A stretch of 13,031 nucleotides of DNA from a virus: the UHGV virus genome UHGV-0124295, one strand, 5' to 3'. Position 1 is the first letter of the stretch. The number at the start of each line of letters is the position of its first letter. Of the stretch, positions 2,993 through 11,852 are shown one piece after another. The position numbers were made by a program, and so were the translations under genes. The notes under the pieces were generated by a model that was not told the DNA's origin, did not search any database, and saw only the letters and a list, made by a program, of their open reading frames with translations.

Positions 2993-3017
2993 CAGAATCC
3001 CCCTCGTTCTTAATCCA

Positions 3018-6359: not shown

Positions 6360-7010
6360 ATGAAAACTCAATTGATGGGAGAGCGCATTCGCGCTCGGAG
6401 AAAAGAACTCAAGATCAGACAGGCCGCACTTGGAAAGATGGTCGGCGTGTCTAATGTTGCCATATCTCAGTGGGAACGCTCTGAGACAGAGCCAAATGGA
6501 GAGAATCTTCTCGCCCTGGCTAATGCGTTGAAGTGTTCCCCTGACTATCTGATGAAAGGAGAGGAAAGTCTTTCAAACATTGCCTATCACAGTAGGCATG
6601 ATCCAAGAGGGTCATACCCTCTGATTAGCTGGGTGAGCGCAGGATGCTGGATGGAAGCTGTAGAACCATATCATAAGCGTGCAATAGATAACTGGTACGA
6701 TACAACCGTAGACTGTTCAGAAGATTCGTTTTGGTTGGACGTGAAGGGAGACTCAATGACGGCTCCGGCCGGTCTCAGTATCCCTGAAGGAATGATAATA
6801 CTCGTCGATCCTGAAGTAGAGCCGCGTAACGGGAAACTGGTAGTTGCAAAGCTCGAAGGAGAAAACGAGGCAACTTTCAAGAAGTTAGTTATTGATGCAG
6901 GCAGGAAGTTTCTAAAACCACTTAACCCACAATATCCGATGATCGAGATCAACGGAAACTGCAAAATCATCGGCGTAGTTGTCGATGCAAAACTAGCAAA
7001 CCTTCCATAA
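6360..7010 (+). CDS. c2: Prophage repressor, P22 C2 / LexA-like S24 peptidase family
   Basis: 216 aa; N-terminal HTH (VGVSNVAISQWERSE), Ala-Gly autocleavage site (SAG) and C-terminal Ser/Lys peptidase fold (GDSM ... VVAKL). Resembles the P22 c2 repressor from memory. Confidence 0.88.
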   Translation: MKTQLMGERIRARRKELKIRQAALGKMVGVSNVAISQWERSETEPNGENLLALANALKCSPDYLMKGEESLSNIAYHSRHDPRGSYPLISWVSAGCWMEAVEPYHKRAIDNWYDTTVDCSEDSFWLDVKGDSMTAPAGLSIPEGMIILVDPEVEPRNGKLVVAKLEGENEATFKKLVIDAGRKFLKPLNPQYPMIEINGNCKIIGVVVDAKLANLP

Positions 7011-7053: not shown

Positions 7054-7129
7054 AAAACTTAAGTTACGAAAGAAAATTTAAGTTTTCTTCAAAAATACTC
7101 TTGACCATTAATTAAAGAGATCTTAAATT
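7054..7129 (+). promoter_or_regulatory. oL operators and pL promoter
   Basis: Operator-like 18-mers ATTAAAGAGATCTTAAAT (7111-7128), ATTTAAGTTTTCTTCAAA (7076-7093) and a CTTAAG-containing site near 7056-7073. -35 TTGACC (7101-7106), 17-nt spacer, -10 TAAATT (7124-7129). Confidence 0.55.
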
Positions 7130-7217: not shown

Positions 7218-7527
7218 CCAAAGAGTAGTTGGCTTTGGGGTGACGTGAAGTGCAGCTGCACGACGGCAACCGGAAGATAAGCACCCGGCGCGTCACCGCC
7301 AAAGTCAATTCCATAGGCGAAATGCAGCCGCCAAACACAGCCAATGCTGCACATGCAACAGGAGGATTTATGTGAATGCATAACTTCAAAACCGAGGTTA
7401 ATTAAATCTCTCGATCCGAGCATTGACCTATTAGGTGGCGAGATGCTCTTTCTGCCCCTCAGTTCGAGGGGCCAGAAACCACTTTGCAATCACTATCAAT
7501 TCCAAAGTTGTTTCATCGGAGGTCAAC

Positions 7528-7800
7528 ATGACAGTAGTCATTACATATCTGGCTGACGATAACACCAGAAATCGCCGCAGAGCACGCAGACAGGCTCAAC
7601 GTGAACAGGCAATGCAAGAACAGCGACTGGCGCGAAAGATTGCGCTAAAGCTCTCTGGTTGCGTCAGAGCAGATAAAGCAGCATCACTCGGAAGCCTTCG
7701 CTGCAAGAAGGCAGATGAATGCAGCGGAAGTATTTGCCTGCCAAACGTAGCCATTTACACGGCAGGCTACCGGAAATCAAAACAACTGACGGCGAGGTAA
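7528..7800 (+). CDS. N: N-like transcription antitermination protein (P22 gp24-like)
   Basis: Track ORF 7435..7800; the real start is ATG 7528 with RBS GGAGGT (7518-7523). MTVVITYLADDNTRNRRRARRQAQREQAM... has an arginine-rich motif; the C-terminal ...GYRKSKQLTAR resembles P22 gp24 from memory. Confidence 0.72.
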   Translation: MTVVITYLADDNTRNRRRARRQAQREQAMQEQRLARKIALKLSGCVRADKAASLGSLRCKKADECSGSICLPNVAIYTAGYRKSKQLTAR

Positions 7801-8090: not shown

Positions 8091-8561
8091 ATGACAATAT
8101 CATGGAGCGTACCTTTTCCTGAATCAGAAACTGAACATGATGGAATGCCTGTTTTCTGGAGATTCCAGGCGACAGTTGAAGAAGATGGAATCAAAATATT
8201 CGCACTTCAATATATAGCTTTTCATCAGACAGAGCATTATGCATGGTTGGTTCCTGCGCATTGGATTGTTAATTTTAAACCAGCACCAAATCAGTGGTTA
8301 CAGGAATGGAAACAAAGGAGAAATAGATATGCAATTAAGAAAGTAGCAAAAAATGCAGAAAGATCTTTTGCATTCCCAACGAAGAAACTTGCCATTGAGA
8401 GTTTATTGCGCCGGAAGAAATACCATTTAATGAGAATCAAACAAGATTTGGCTGTTGTATCAACTCTTGTTGATGGGATGAAGAATATTGATACATCAAC
8501 ACCAGATATTGAATATAACTTTGGACACAACCAAGAAACAGAAAATTGGGTATTTTATTAG
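8091..8561 (+). CDS. Hypothetical protein (156 aa), low-GC moron
   Basis: Strong RBS GAGGTGAG before ATG 8091. Visibly AT-rich relative to flanking phage DNA. No recognisable motifs and no obvious transmembrane segment. Confidence 0.6.
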   Translation: MTISWSVPFPESETEHDGMPVFWRFQATVEEDGIKIFALQYIAFHQTEHYAWLVPAHWIVNFKPAPNQWLQEWKQRRNRYAIKKVAKNAERSFAFPTKKLAIESLLRRKKYHLMRIKQDLAVVSTLVDGMKNIDTSTPDIEYNFGHNQETENWVFY

Positions 8562-8665
8562 TACGAATAAGCACTGTGTATTCATTCCAACGAGTGAATA
8601 CACGGAGCAATGTCGCTCGTAACTAAACAGGAGCCGACTTGTTCTGATTATTTGAAATCTTCTTT

Positions 8666-8691
8666 GCCCTCCTATGTGAGGGCGATTTTTT
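8666..8691 (+). terminator. Intrinsic terminator (tL-like) after the 156-aa ORF
   Basis: GCCCTC-CTATGT-GAGGGC hairpin followed by GATTTTTT. Confidence 0.6.
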
Positions 8692-8704
8692 GACGGAGTG
8701 AACG

Positions 8705-8953
8705 ATGATAAAAACTGATTATCCTGCAGAACTTAAACAAAAAGTAATAACAGCAATTAAATGCTCTTTTATCTCATGCCGTACAGATGAAGAACGATAT
8801 GTCGTTGAGTGTGCAATTGTCGAGTTTCTCACAGCGATGGAATTTACCGCTGCAGAATCAATAGATGTATTAAAGCAATCAGACGGAAATGATATTGAAA
8901 CGGATGATGTTATTGACCGACTAATAAAATCATTCGAAGAAGAAATAGAGTAG
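8705..8953 (+). CDS. Hypothetical small acidic protein (82 aa)
   Basis: RBS GGAG 6 nt before ATG 8705. AT-rich coding sequence; highly acidic C-terminus (DGNDIETDDVIDRLIKSFEEEIE). Confidence 0.55.
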   Translation: MIKTDYPAELKQKVITAIKCSFISCRTDEERYVVECAIVEFLTAMEFTAAESIDVLKQSDGNDIETDDVIDRLIKSFEEEIE

Positions 8954-9036
8954 CCGCCTGAGCGCGGCTTTACCGCATACCAATAATGCTTCACGAGAGG
9001 CATTTTCGTTATGCAATCAAATATAAGGAGTTACCC

Positions 9037-9171
9037 ATGATGCACTTTCAGCTCGCGGGTAGCGGCGTCATGTCCGCTTTCTACCCGCACGAATCTGAAT
9101 TATCACGCCGAGTTAAACAATTAATCAGAGCAGCAAAGAAACAACTGGAGGCGTTATGCGCAATGAAATAG
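9037..9171 (+). CDS. cIII: CIII-like protein (FtsH inhibitor, stabilises CII)
   Basis: MMHFQLAGSGVMSAFYPHESELSRRVKQLIRAAKKQLEALCAMK. RBS AAGGAG 6 nt upstream. The core helix resembles lambda CIII (ESLLERITRKLRDGWKRLIDIL) from memory. The track ORF 8986..9171 has an upstream extension that is rejected. Confidence 0.65.
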   Translation: MMHFQLAGSGVMSAFYPHESELSRRVKQLIRAAKKQLEALCAMK

Positions 9172-9308
9172 CCATCAATCACCAGATGCTTCGTGCAGCA
9201 CAGAACAAAGCAGTAATAGCCAGATTTATTGGTGATTCCAAAATGTGGCTTGAAGCAAATAAAGCGATGAAATCAGCTATCAACCTTCCGTGGTATCGCA
9301 GGAAATGA
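9156..9308 (+). CDS. kil: Kil-like small protein (50 aa)
   Basis: Not in the ORF track; MRNEIAINHQMLRAAQNKAVIARFIGDSKMWLEANKAMKSAINLPWYRRK. RBS GGAGG (9147-9151). Overlaps the cIII 3' end as kil does in lambda; the IA.FIGD.KM motif resembles lambda Kil from memory. Confidence 0.5.
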   Translation: MRNEIAINHQMLRAAQNKAVIARFIGDSKMWLEANKAMKSAINLPWYRRK

Positions 9309-9383
9309 GTTTTACAGATAACTGGTCAGACGAAGAATTCATTCGTCAGATGAAAGAATTAATCGGTAACGAAGGAGATATTC

Positions 9384-9554
9384 ATGTCACTTGCAACCAC
9401 AGTGAAGGAGAGCAAGTTACAGAGACGCATGTACACGCAGAAAGCTCTCTGGTATCGCCATAATGGTGACCGCGAAGGAATGCGGGTATGCCTTAATTTG
9501 TCCAGAGTCGAAGTATTAAACCAGCGTTATTTCCTTGGGCCATGTCCATTCTGA
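9384..9554 (+). CDS. Hypothetical small protein (56 aa)
   Basis: ATG 9384 with RBS AAGGAG (9372-9377); MSLATTVKESKLQRRMYTQKALWYRHNGDREGMRVCLNLSRVEVLNQRYFLGPCPF. Ends 8 nt before the Rad52-like gene. An alternative overlapping ORF 9305..9463 exists in another frame. Confidence 0.35.
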   Translation: MSLATTVKESKLQRRMYTQKALWYRHNGDREGMRVCLNLSRVEVLNQRYFLGPCPF

Positions 9555-11097: not shown

Positions 11098-11265
11098 ATG
11101 AGAGGACTTGCATACAATCCCGGAATTCTTCCGGCAGAAATGATTATTCGTCAACGCGTAAAGCCAATGCCATCGAGAGAGGAATTGCTTAAGAGAAATA
11201 GTTTCGGTTCTGTTAATGACAACAAATATCTGAATGCAATGTGGCGCAAAGGAGGCAAGCAGTGA
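11098..11265 (+). CDS. Hypothetical small protein (55 aa)
   Basis: ATG 11098 with RBS GAGGA 7 nt upstream; it is the 3' part of track ORF 10945..11265, whose 5' part overlaps the previous gene and is rejected. Confidence 0.4.
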
Positions 11266-11852
11266 GCAACATCGACAAACAGGCGCAGCGTAAAGCAAAG
11301 GTAATCACAAAGGAATTTGTTGAGGAACACCTTCACTACGATGGGAAGGATTTTTTCTGGAAGAAGCGCGAACCAAGTTCGTTTTCTGACAGCCGCACAT
11401 GCAAGGTTTGGAATACTCGAATTGCAGGGAAGCGGGCCGGAGGAATCAGCGCTCAAGGTTATGTAGAAATTCAAATCAAAGGGAGTCGATATAAGGCTCA
11501 TAGATTAGCGTGGTGTCTTGTTCATGGCGATATACCAACAGACATGCAGGTTGATCACATTAACCACGACCGAACTGATAACCGAATAGAGAATCTGCGC
11601 CTTGTTGATAATCAGGGAAACCAAAAGAACTCTTCGATACGAAAGGACAACATTGGAGGCTGCACAGGTGTTACCTGGAATCCTAGCCATAAAAGATGGA
11701 TTGCCTACATACGCGAAAATGGTAAGCACAAGCACATTGGTAGCTTCATTAAATTCTCTGATGCTGTAAGAGCAAGAGAGGAAGCTCAGGCAAGGCTTGG
11801 ATTCCACATGAATCACGGCGCCGCTGGCATTCGCATCAAAGGAGGTGAGTAA
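11262..11852 (+). CDS. HNH endonuclease with C-terminal AP2-type DNA-binding domain
   Basis: HNH_3-like motif [16 protein letters not shown]...[27 protein letters not shown] and AP2-like [40 protein letters not shown]. Probable GTG start at 11262 after RBS GGAGG; the track start is GTG 11241. Confidence 0.78.

What the first reader, a model, noticed from the sequence alone, without database searches (positions are those of the whole stretch)
8705..8953. Small, highly acidic 82-aa protein downstream of a terminator: DNA-mimic or anti-defence candidate
The protein is rich in Asp and Glu, especially at the C-terminus, small, and encoded in AT-rich DNA in the early-left operon. That composition is reminiscent of phage DNA-mimic anti-restriction or anti-host proteins. 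It sits just after the intrinsic terminator at 8666-8691 and would be expressed only under N antitermination, that is early in lytic growth.
Basis: inference. Interest (0 to 1): 0.5.

Follow-up and report, generated by a model that had tools for sequence, protein, structure and literature searches.

The report
Acidic early phage protein, function untested
This is a real, conserved small acidic four-helix protein made early in lytic growth of a lambda-like phage, probably to bind and block some host or defence protein; the database label "anti-restriction protein" and the DNA-mimic idea have no evidence behind them.

Summary
Window 8705-8953 encodes an 82-aa protein (pI 4.27, net charge -11, 35% GC) with a GGAG ribosome site. 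It lies 13 nt after an intrinsic terminator in the pL (early-left) operon, between N and cIII. It is a genuine gene: homologues at 30-68% identity exist in about 50 protein clusters. Non-synonymous change is far below synonymous change. The strong negative charge is kept across the family (median net -12). AlphaFold2 with the family alignment gives a confident four-helix bundle (pLDDT 92). The upstream terminator is the lambda tL2a equivalent, the 3' end of a PreS/LPR1 sRNA copy that is about 98% identical to lambda. ORF82 therefore sits in lambda's ea10 slot, as a 280-bp cassette bracketed by hairpins. The PHROG and RefSeq label "anti-restriction protein" traces to one GenBank record that calls it "ral", and it shows no similarity to Ral, Ocr or any Pfam family. 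No anti-restriction or DNA-mimic structure appears among the listed fold matches. A BASEL phage with a 42%-identical homologue is strongly restricted by Type I, II and III systems. Best reading: an N-dependent, lytic-only acidic binder or inhibitor of an unknown host or defence protein. The target is unknown, and classical anti-restriction is unlikely.

The parts
7101..7129 (+). pL-like promoter candidate (TTGACC-17-TAAATT)
   Evidence: Consensus scan, 9 of 12 matches. The position just right of the cI-like gene fits pL. The assignment is inferred.
7444..7472 (+). nutL-like site: boxA-like TGCTCTTTC (7444-7452) and boxB-like hairpin GCCCCTC-AGTTC-GAGGGGC (7454-7472)
   Evidence: Read directly from the sequence. 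It lies between the promoter candidate and N. Inferred by analogy to lambdoid nut sites.
7528..7800 (+). N antiterminator gene (true start probably ATG 7528, not the GTG at 7435)
   Evidence: phrog_271 'anti-termination protein N-like', E 3.8e-32. Arg-rich motif NRRRARRQ. The longer ORF would run over the nut site.
8091..8561 (+). orf156 (HK97 gp45 homologue), upstream neighbour of unknown function
   Evidence: phrog_1636, 1.5e-111. Homologues at 84-92% identity sit directly upstream of ORF82 homologues in two Skatevirus-like contigs.
8571..8691 (+). PreS/LPR1 sRNA homologue ending in the tL2a-type terminator (stem 8664-8685, T-run 8686-8691)
   Evidence: About 98% identical to the lambda ral-ea10 intergenic region, where LPR1/PreS ends at tL2a (doi 10.1101/2024.10.31.621285). 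Fold z-score -6.0. Terminator scan.
8692..8973 (+). ORF82 cassette, present here but absent from HK97, where the terminator is followed directly by the cIII leader
   Evidence: Alignment with HK97, HK446, Kapi1 and ECP1. In megablast the flanks match 325 phage records, but the insert matches only 5.
8695..8698 (+). Shine-Dalgarno GGAG, 6 nt before the ATG
   Evidence: Sequence. GGAGG is kept in the homologues at 64-68% identity.
8705..8953 (+). ORF82 coding sequence: 82-aa acidic four-helix-bundle protein (helices 7-23, 28-44, 49-57, 64-81)
   Evidence: ORF list. phrog_14587, 2e-48. AF2 pLDDT 92.2, pTM 0.80. Purifying selection. Conserved acidic columns.
8952..8969 (+). GC-rich hairpin at the stop codon (AGCCGC-CTGAGC-GCGGCT, then TTTACC): weak terminator or 3' boundary of the cassette
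   Evidence: -10.3 kcal/mol. An equivalent hairpin, with a T5-6 tail in L019, L023 and L024, follows the stop codon in all lambdoid copies down to 47% identity.
9037..9171 (+). cIII, downstream neighbour
   Evidence: Pfam PF08134 cIII, 2e-30.
9156..9308 (+). kil
   Evidence: Pfam Lambda_Kil, 1.7e-20.

Best explanation
ORF82 is a genuine accessory gene of the delayed-early pL operon. It is a self-contained cassette (terminator, ribosome site, ORF, hairpin) sitting where lambda carries ea10, between the PreS sRNA/tL2a terminator and cIII.

It has no promoter of its own. It should be transcribed only when pL is derepressed and N-modified polymerase reads through the tL2a-type terminator, that is, early in lytic growth.

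The product is a compact, strongly acidic four-helix bundle. Conserved carboxylates cluster at the start of helix 3 and along helix 4 (D49, E51, E65, D67, D68, D71), and there is a conserved Glu40.

The most likely mode of action is that of its operon neighbours cIII, Kil and Abc2. It would bind one host (or host-defence) protein stoichiometrically, probably through a basic, possibly nucleic-acid-binding surface, and neutralise or redirect it.

Shown: the gene is real, the family and its charge are conserved, the fold, the position, and silence in lysogens of an identical copy.

Inferred: N dependence, inhibitor function and the nature of the target.

It is not a Ral, Ocr or ArdA homologue.
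For: Real gene under selection:
- 17 representatives at 50% clustering, and 52 clusters in all.
- pN/pS 0.24-0.28, and dN/dS 0.10 for one pair.
- Only synonymous differences among the near-identical copies.
- The exact protein occurs on at least 1000 contigs and in 58 of 5426 complete E. coli genomes.

Charge is a family trait:
- Median net charge is -12 across 46 members at about 40% identity.
- Ten columns are at least 70% acidic.

Fold: AF2 pLDDT 92, four helices.

Context:
- In every lambdoid copy (47-100% identity) it lies 0.6-1.6 kb downstream of N.
- It has a T-run 18-36 nt before the ATG and a hairpin at the stop codon.
- cIII and kil follow 332-337 and 451-453 nt after its start in the copies where they were detected (window, L001-L003; L021 for both, L022 for cIII).
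- Its neighbours are small binders of host proteins: cIII, Kil, Abc2.
- The other occupants of the same slot are unrelated proteins with the same charge density: Ea10 at -14 over 122 aa and the gp17-like protein at -14 over 103 aa.
- In about 100 virulent Skatevirus-like phages the homologue is the first gene of a short divergent operon with a ParB-like gene, with or without a DNA methylase.

Expression: silent in the Kapi1 lysogen together with kil and cIII (PMC12922286).
Against: - There is no experimental datum on this protein or any homologue.
- No partner is conserved next to it.
- Some conserved acidic residues sit at helix N-termini and could be structural caps.
- Surface electrostatics could not be computed.
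- Acidity alone is weak evidence, since orf57 in the same window is equally acidic.
- 'Binds a host protein' is an argument from neighbourhood and composition only.
Confidence: 0.45

Rival explanations
1. DNA-mimic anti-restriction protein. The acidic surface imitates B-DNA and titrates Type I R-M enzymes, or BREX and other DNA-tracking defences, as Ocr and ArdA do.
For: - Strong negative charge conserved across the family.
- Early expression position.
- First gene of an early operon that in Bas77 also carries a DNA methylase.
- Known DNA mimics have unrelated folds, so lack of homology does not exclude it.
- PHROG label 'anti-restriction protein'.
Against: - The label traces to a single GenBank annotation, ECP1 'antirestriction protein ral'. 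That record also mislabels cIII.
- BLASTP against lambda Ral gives E 17, and Ral is basic at +3.
- hhalign against Ocr gives probability 0.1%.
- No Pfam anti-restriction family matches any of 46 members at E <= 1.
- Net charge per residue is -0.13, against -0.24 for Ocr.
- Bas77 with a 42% homologue plates at EOP 0.04-0.08 on EcoKI, 6e-4 to 1e-3 on EcoCFT_I, 3e-5 on EcoRI, about 1e-7 on EcoRV, 1e-6 on EcoCFT_II and 1e-5 on EcoPI (PMC11990801, S1 Data).
- The paper calls these phages 'markedly sensitive to RM systems'.
Confidence: 0.12
2. A phage-internal modulator. The acidic protein binds one of the phage's own basic early products (N, Kil, cIII, Erf/SSB/Abc2 machinery) or the PreS-Hfq system, and so tunes the lysis-lysogeny decision, host killing or recombination rather than host defences.
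For: - It sits between PreS and cIII/kil, among very basic small proteins: N +13, Kil +7, cIII +4.
- It is co-silenced with kil and cIII in lysogens.
- Lambda's ea10 slot has no known anti-defence role.
Against: - Homologues occur in virulent Skatevirus-like phages and a 44-kb Citrobacter phage. Marker searches found no N, cIII, kil or PreS-type terminator at these loci.
- The gene is absent from HK97, HK022, HK106 and mEp235, which share the same flanking genes.
- It is therefore dispensable, and it is portable across backbones.
Confidence: 0.15
3. Acidic partner (immunity or antitoxin-like, or co-factor) of the basic upstream protein orf156 (HK97 gp45 family).
For: - orf156 (pI 8.8) lies directly upstream here.
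- Homologues at 84% and 92% identity lie directly upstream of ORF82 homologues in two Skatevirus-like contigs, L014 and L029.
- There is a weak sequence hint to the colicin E7 immunity protein (E 0.23).
Against: - Each gene usually occurs without the other. HK97 and PA28 have gp45 only. HK446, Kapi1, Bas77 and most Skatevirus copies have ORF82 only.
- The two differ sharply in divergence (84-92% against 42%).
- A terminator and an sRNA separate them here.
- The Im7 hint weakens with the family profile (E 0.77) and is absent from the fold searches.
Confidence: 0.06
4. Prophage-expressed defence or superinfection-exclusion moron.
For: - Low-GC cassette flanked by terminators, a moron-like architecture.
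- The neighbouring slot variant gp17 is annotated 'superinfection exclusion protein' in PA28.
Against: - No promoter of its own.
- Not expressed in the Kapi1 lysogen.
- No PADLOC match.
- Common in strictly virulent phages.
Confidence: 0.04

Closest known systems
phrog_14587 / RefSeq 'anti-restriction protein' (HK446 gp36 YP_007111989, Kapi1_017, ECP1_057, Bas77_0047)
   Same: Full-length match at 2e-48. The protein is 100% identical in HK446, Kapi1 and ECP1.
   Different: The family name has no experimental or homology basis. It appears to derive from ECP1's 'antirestriction protein ral'. NCBI PGAP and UniProt call the same protein hypothetical or uncharacterised.
Lambda Ea10 (and mEpX2 gp38)
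   Same: Same genomic slot, immediately after the PreS/tL2a terminator and before cIII. Same charge character: net -14 over 122 aa, pI 4.3. Function also unknown.
   Different: No detectable sequence similarity. Ea10 is 40 residues longer. Its fold was not compared.
P22 gp17 family (H-19B gp17, PA28 'superinfection exclusion protein gp17')
   Same: An alternative occupant of the same slot in Stx and other lambdoid phages. Similar size and charge: 103 aa, net -14, pI 4.1.
   Different: No sequence similarity. From memory, not verified here, P22 gene 17 helps the phage grow on certain prophage-carrying hosts.
T7 Ocr (gp0.3) and ArdA DNA mimics
   Same: Small, acidic, early-expressed phage or plasmid proteins.
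   Different: hhalign probability 0.1% against Ocr. No fold match is listed. Half the charge density of Ocr. A homologue-bearing phage is not protected from Type I systems. ArdA was tested only through Pfam and the fold libraries.
Lambda Ral
   Same: A pL-operon accessory gene between N and cIII. The source of the database label.
   Different: Unrelated sequence (E 17). Ral is basic. Ral lies upstream of PreS/tL2a, ORF82 downstream.
Four-helix cap of B12-binding photoreceptor domains (AerR 7te2, CarH 5c8d)
   Different: 6% identity. No Rossmann B12-binding domain is present. Foldseek finds nothing at E below 0.9. This is most likely shared topology only.

Membership tests
phrog_14587 | Full-length profile match | tested here: met
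   E 2.2e-48, residues 1-82 on profile positions 1-82.
Ral (restriction alleviation, lambda/P22) | Sequence homology to lambda Ral | tested here: not met
   BLASTP E 17, with 3 aligned residues. No Pfam family at E <= 1 in any of 46 members.
Ral (restriction alleviation, lambda/P22) | Position between N/sieB and the tL2a terminator | tested here: not met
   ORF82 lies downstream of the PreS/tL2a homologue, in the ea10 position.
Ocr | Sequence or profile homology to T7 gp0.3 | tested here: not met
   hhalign of the family alignment against Ocr: probability 0.1%, E 0.64.
Ocr / ArdA / ArdB-KlcA / Arn (structural DNA mimics and anti-restriction folds) | Fold similarity to a solved member | tested here: not met
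DNA mimic (functional class) | High net negative charge conserved in the family | tested here: met
   Net -11, with a family median of -12. This is about half the charge density of Ocr.
DNA mimic (functional class) | Surface carboxylates arranged like a B-DNA phosphate backbone | not testable with these tools
Only the linear pattern of conserved acidic columns is known.
DNA mimic (functional class) | Competes with DNA for a DNA-binding protein; relieves restriction | not testable with these tools
Colicin/pyocin immunity protein (Im7-like) | Sequence or fold similarity | tested here: not met
   phmmer E 0.23 over 34 residues. This falls to E 0.77 with the family profile. No Pfam hit. Absent from the fold-search lists.
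N-dependent delayed-early pL gene | Downstream of pL, nutL, N and an intrinsic terminator, with no own promoter | tested here: met
   Promoter and terminator scan. nut-like site. N. tL2a homology. Actual N-dependent read-through was not tested.
N-dependent delayed-early pL gene | Repressed in the lysogen | tested here: met
   Published RNA-seq of the Kapi1 lysogen: Kapi1_017, which has the identical protein, was not detected, like kil and cIII (PMC12922286).
Known anti-phage defence proteins (PADLOC) | Profile match | tested here: not met
   No family at E <= 0.1.

The most novel reading that the evidence does not exclude
The PreS/tL2a-to-cIII slot of lambdoid phages is a swap site for non-homologous but iso-functional acidic proteins (ORF82, Ea10, gp17-like). 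Each would be a decoy or inhibitor of a different host defence or nucleoid-associated DNA-binding protein. ORF82 would then be the founding member of a new anti-defence family, shared between temperate lambdoid phages and about 100 virulent Skatevirus-like phages of Escherichia, Salmonella, Klebsiella and Shigella.
Probability: 0.2. Interest if true: 0.6.

Novelty: new member of a known kind. Interest (0 to 1): 0.35.

Why it matters
Lambda's N-proximal pL genes are a classic source of small host-manipulating proteins (cIII, Kil, Gam, Ral). Several of them, such as Ea10, remain unexplained after 40 years.

ORF82 is a widespread occupant of the Ea10 slot. It is found on at least 1000 contigs, in about 1% of complete E. 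coli genomes, and in about 100 virulent phages. It has a confident, compact structure and a conserved acidic surface. That makes it a tractable candidate for a new host-takeover or anti-defence function.

There is also a practical point. The label 'anti-restriction protein' now attached to this family in PHROGs, RefSeq and Pharokka-style annotations looks like an error copied from one record. It could mislead counts of anti-defence genes and phage-therapy genome screens.

Tried and rejected
- Pfam, NCBIfam and PADLOC scans of ORF82, and of all 46 family members against Pfam, gave only noise.
- PDB sequence search with the single protein and with the family profile gave nothing significant. The Im7 hint (E 0.23) did not survive the profile (E 0.77) or the fold searches.
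- Single-sequence AF2 was poor (pLDDT 59). It was superseded by the alignment-based model.
- BLASTP against lambda Ral, Ea10 and H-19B gp17, and hhalign against Ocr, showed no relationship.
- I looked for a conserved downstream partner. The downstream genes differ: cIII here, a 63-aa acidic protein in Skatevirus, a TraR-like zinc-finger protein in Pantoea prophages.
- Metal binding through Cys20, Cys25 and Cys36 was considered and rejected as a general feature. Only Cys25 is invariant, and one homologue (P0043) has a single Cys.
- The antisense ORF 8719-9003 (94 aa) was rejected, because it carries stop codons in the homologues.
- Literature searches by accession, PHROG number and phage names found no functional study.
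- Rfam has no family for the upstream sRNA.
- The function of P22 gene 17 could not be verified in the library.

Full report
**1. What is in the sequence**

The window is the immunity and early region of a lambdoid phage or prophage. The closest overall matches are mosaic: CUS-3, JEP4 and HF4s at about 97% identity over about half the window.

The leftward-transcribed genes on the minus strand are P, O, a cII-like gene and cro. On the plus strand the order is as follows:
- a cI-like repressor, 6360-7010
- a pL-like promoter candidate, 7101-7129
- a nut-like boxA/boxB, 7444-7472
- N, 7528-7800 (phrog_271, 4e-32)
- orf75
- orf156, the HK97 gp45 homologue
- a 140-nt non-coding block ending in a terminator
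- ORF82, 8705-8953
- cIII, 9037-9171 (Pfam cIII, 2e-30)
- kil, orf57, erf, ssb, abc2 and an HNH endonuclease

The ORF has an ATG start, 82 codons, and GGAG 6 nt upstream. The protein has pI 4.27, net charge -11 and 24% Asp+Glu. About -9 of that charge lies in residues 51-82 (my count on the sequence). GC is 35% against 47% for the window. The terminator has its stem core at 8666-8683, followed by T6 at 8686-8691.

**2. It is a real, selected gene**

The exact protein occurs on at least 1000 public contigs. The cassette is in 58 of 5426 complete E. coli genomes, always chromosomal.

An exhaustive HMMER search found 17 representatives at 50% clustering. A profile search found 52 clusters, all unnamed or 'hypothetical'. 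They come from Escherichia, Salmonella phages, Pantoea and Citrobacter.

Selection evidence:
- Against homologues at 68% and 64% identity, synonymous sites are saturated (pS 0.81-0.92) while pN is 0.19-0.26.
- The pair P0033/P0043 gives dN/dS of about 0.10.
- HK446 and ECP1 differ from the window by 4 and 3 substitutions, all synonymous.
- The antisense 94-aa ORF is not conserved.

Conserved positions:
- Ala17 and Cys25 are invariant.
- Ile38, Glu40, Ala44, Leu56, Gly61 and Asp67 are nearly so.
- The negative charge is a family property, with a median net charge of -12 over 46 members.
- It is position-specific. Columns 9, 30, 40, 49, 51, 65, 67, 68, 71 and 79 are at least 70% acidic, and K11 and K13 are basic.

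**3. Structure**

Without an alignment, AF2 was unconvincing (pLDDT 59). With the 46-sequence alignment it gave pLDDT 92.2 and pTM 0.80. The model is a four-helix bundle with helices at 7-23, 28-44, 49-57 and 64-81.
- Foldseek against the PDB found nothing below E 0.9.
- BFVD returned only the protein's own family, from Salmonella phages 64795_sal3 and SeSz-2.
- No Ocr, ArdA, KlcA, Arn or Im7 entry is among the 60 matches shown.

The fold therefore gives no functional lead. I could not obtain coordinates, so the surface charge geometry remains untested.

**4. The terminator and the slot**

Window 8571-8691 is about 98% identical to the lambda ral-ea10 intergenic region. A 2024 preprint (doi 10.1101/2024.10.31.621285) shows that this lambda region encodes the Hfq-dependent sRNA LPR1/PreS. 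Its 3' end is the pL-operon terminator tL2a. It is made in lytic growth and raises DnaN translation. The block folds far better than shuffled sequence (z -6.0). Rfam has no model for it.

ORF82 occupies the position of lambda ea10, not of ral.

Comparison with other phages shows a polymorphic slot between this terminator and cIII:

| Slot content | Phages |
|---|---|
| Empty | HK97, HK022, HK106, mEp235 |
| Ea10-like protein | lambda, mEpX2 |
| P22 gp17-like protein | H-19B, PA28, Stx phages |
| 322-aa Lys/Glu-rich protein | 683R2 |
| ORF82 | the window, HK446, Kapi1, ECP1 |

Relative to HK97 the insert is about 8692-8973. It comprises a ribosome site, the ORF, and a GC hairpin that overlaps the stop codon.

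The architecture recurs in every lambdoid copy, down to 47% protein identity. There is a T-run 18-36 nt before the ATG and a hairpin at the stop. In L019, L023 and L024 that hairpin carries a good T-tail. N lies 0.6-1.6 kb upstream.

No plus-strand sigma-70-like promoter lies between pL and the gene. In the Kapi1 lysogen the identical gene is not detectably transcribed, like kil and cIII (PMC12922286). N-dependent, lytic-only expression is thus well supported by inference, though it was not measured.

**5. Where else the family lives**

tblastn finds homologues at about 42% identity in 107 phage records. Nearly all are virulent Skatevirus-like siphophages of Salmonella, E. coli, Klebsiella and Shigella.
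- In these phages the gene is the first, or occasionally the second, gene of a short operon that diverges from the structural genes. A 63-aa acidic protein, a ParB-like protein and sometimes a DNA methylase and RusA follow it.
- Pantoea prophages carry it late in the early-left operon, near xis and int.
- A 44-kb Citrobacter phage carries it after a primase/helicase-like gene.
- No neighbour is conserved across these settings.

It therefore behaves as a stand-alone, portable module.

**6. The 'anti-restriction' label**

phrog_14587 is annotated 'anti-restriction protein'. RefSeq and newer records repeat this. The only primary source I found is ECP1 ASJ79511, 'antirestriction protein ral'. That record calls the true cIII 'hypothetical' and another ORF 'cIII'. 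The original HK446 and Kapi1 submissions, PGAP and UniProt all say hypothetical.

ORF82 is unrelated to Ral (E 17). Ral is basic. Ral also lies on the other side of tL2a. That the label spread from this one record is my inference.

**7. Tests of the DNA-mimic, Type I anti-restriction idea**
- No sequence, profile or fold link to Ocr, ArdA or relatives.
- Charge density is -0.13 per residue, against -0.24 for Ocr.
- BASEL phage Bas77 carries an intact homologue (Bas77_0047). On restricting hosts it plates at the EOPs below (PMC11990801 S1 Data).
- The authors describe these phages as markedly sensitive to RM systems.

| System | EOP of Bas77 |
|---|---|
| EcoKI | 0.04-0.08 |
| EcoCFT_I | 6e-4 to 1e-3 |
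| EcoRI | 3e-5 |
| EcoRV | about 1e-7 |
| EcoCFT_II | 1e-6 |
| EcoPI | 1e-5 |

This argues against an Ocr-like block of restriction. The caveat is that it concerns a homologue at 42% identity, so it would not exclude a subtle Ral-like effect or another target such as BREX.

**8. Most likely mechanism**

The N-proximal pL genes of lambdoid phages are mostly small proteins that each bind one host protein. From established knowledge, cIII binds FtsH, Kil binds FtsZ, Gam and Abc2 bind RecBCD, and Ral acts on EcoKI.

ORF82 is small, compact, dispensable and portable. It is lytic-only and has a conserved acidic patch. The two other small occupants of its slot are unrelated in sequence but have the same charge density.

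I therefore think it most likely (about 0.45) that it is a stoichiometric binder or inhibitor of a host or host-defence protein with a basic, perhaps nucleic-acid-binding, surface. The target is unknown.

Rivals:
- DNA-mimic anti-restriction: 0.12.
- Modulator of the phage's own basic early proteins: 0.15. This is weakened by the gene's presence in virulent phages where marker searches found no N, cIII or kil.
- Partner of orf156: 0.06. The adjacency recurs in L014 and L029, but each gene is usually found alone.
- Prophage defence moron: 0.04. It has no promoter, is silent in lysogens and has no PADLOC hit.

**9. Novelty and verdict**

The gene is catalogued but uncharacterised, and its only functional label is unsupported. 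It is a new member of a known kind: small early phage host-modulating proteins. The family has no Pfam entry and a generic fold.

Interest is moderate. Nothing here would surprise a phage specialist. The recurring 'acidic protein slot' behind PreS/tL2a and the sharing of the gene between temperate and virulent phages do make it a reasonable experimental target.

Noticed in passing
window 8571-8691 (+): The non-coding block upstream of ORF82 is a near-identical copy (about 98%) of lambda's PreS/LPR1 Hfq-dependent sRNA, ending at the tL2a terminator. It is more widely conserved than either flanking gene, matching 325 phage records. It folds with z -6.0. It has no Rfam family.
   Followed up: yes
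window 8091-8561; L014 3516-3986; L029 (about 485 nt upstream of the match at 3001): orf156 (HK97 gp45 family, phrog_1636, unknown function, basic, 36% GC) lies directly upstream of ORF82 here. Homologues at 84-92% identity lie directly upstream of the ORF82 homologue (42% identity) in two virulent Skatevirus-like contigs. The adjacency recurs across unrelated phage backbones despite discordant divergence.
   Followed up: partly
slot between the tL2a-type terminator and cIII: window 8692-9036; lambda L004 737-1105; H-19B L013 1246-1557; PA28 L040 1646-1957: Three unrelated proteins that alternate in this slot have nearly the same charge density. ORF82 is -11 over 82 aa, Ea10 is -14 over 122 aa, and the gp17-like protein is -14 over 103 aa; pI is 4.1-4.3 in all three. 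A fourth variant (683R2, L041 1646-2614) is a 322-aa Lys/Glu-rich protein. HK97-type phages have the slot empty.
   Followed up: partly
database annotations of phrog_14587 members (e.g. NC_019714 F846_gp36, NC_054643, PQ850598 Bas77_0047): The label 'anti-restriction protein' is carried by many RefSeq and Pharokka-style records. It appears to descend from one unsupported GenBank annotation, ECP1 'antirestriction protein ral'.
   Followed up: yes
P0031 (122 aa) and P0058 (85 aa), Skatevirus-like metagenome proteins: In-frame deletion fusions join the ORF82 homologue to the downstream 63-aa acidic protein (L014 4264-4455). They may be natural variants or assembly artefacts. They could hint that the two acidic proteins act together.
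   Followed up: no
window 9290-9463 (+): orf57 is as acidic as ORF82 (net -10 over 57 aa, pI 4.36). Its PHROG label 'recombinase' (phrog_2123, a 52-residue profile) looks implausible for so small a protein.
   Followed up: no
window 7435-7800 (+): The longest N ORF starts at GTG 7435 and would run across the nut-like boxA/boxB (7444-7472). The real start is probably ATG 7528, which has GGAGG upstream.
   Followed up: partly
ORF82 residues 20, 25, 36-37 (window about 8762-8815): Cys25 is invariant in all 46 family members. Cys is common at positions 20/21 and 37. One homologue has only Cys25, so a metal site is unlikely. The reason for the invariance is unexplained.
   Followed up: partly
L019 1931-2078 and L021 3400-3500: The divergent ORF82 copies are also preceded by structured non-coding blocks that end in terminators. 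The L019 block shares short motifs with PreS (GCTCGTA, TTGTTNTCTGATT), so these may be diverged PreS-like sRNAs.
   Followed up: no
window 11241-11852 (+): An HNH endonuclease gene (phrog_99, 8e-64) sits inside the early-left operon after abc2. It is a likely mobile or homing-type insertion.
   Followed up: no
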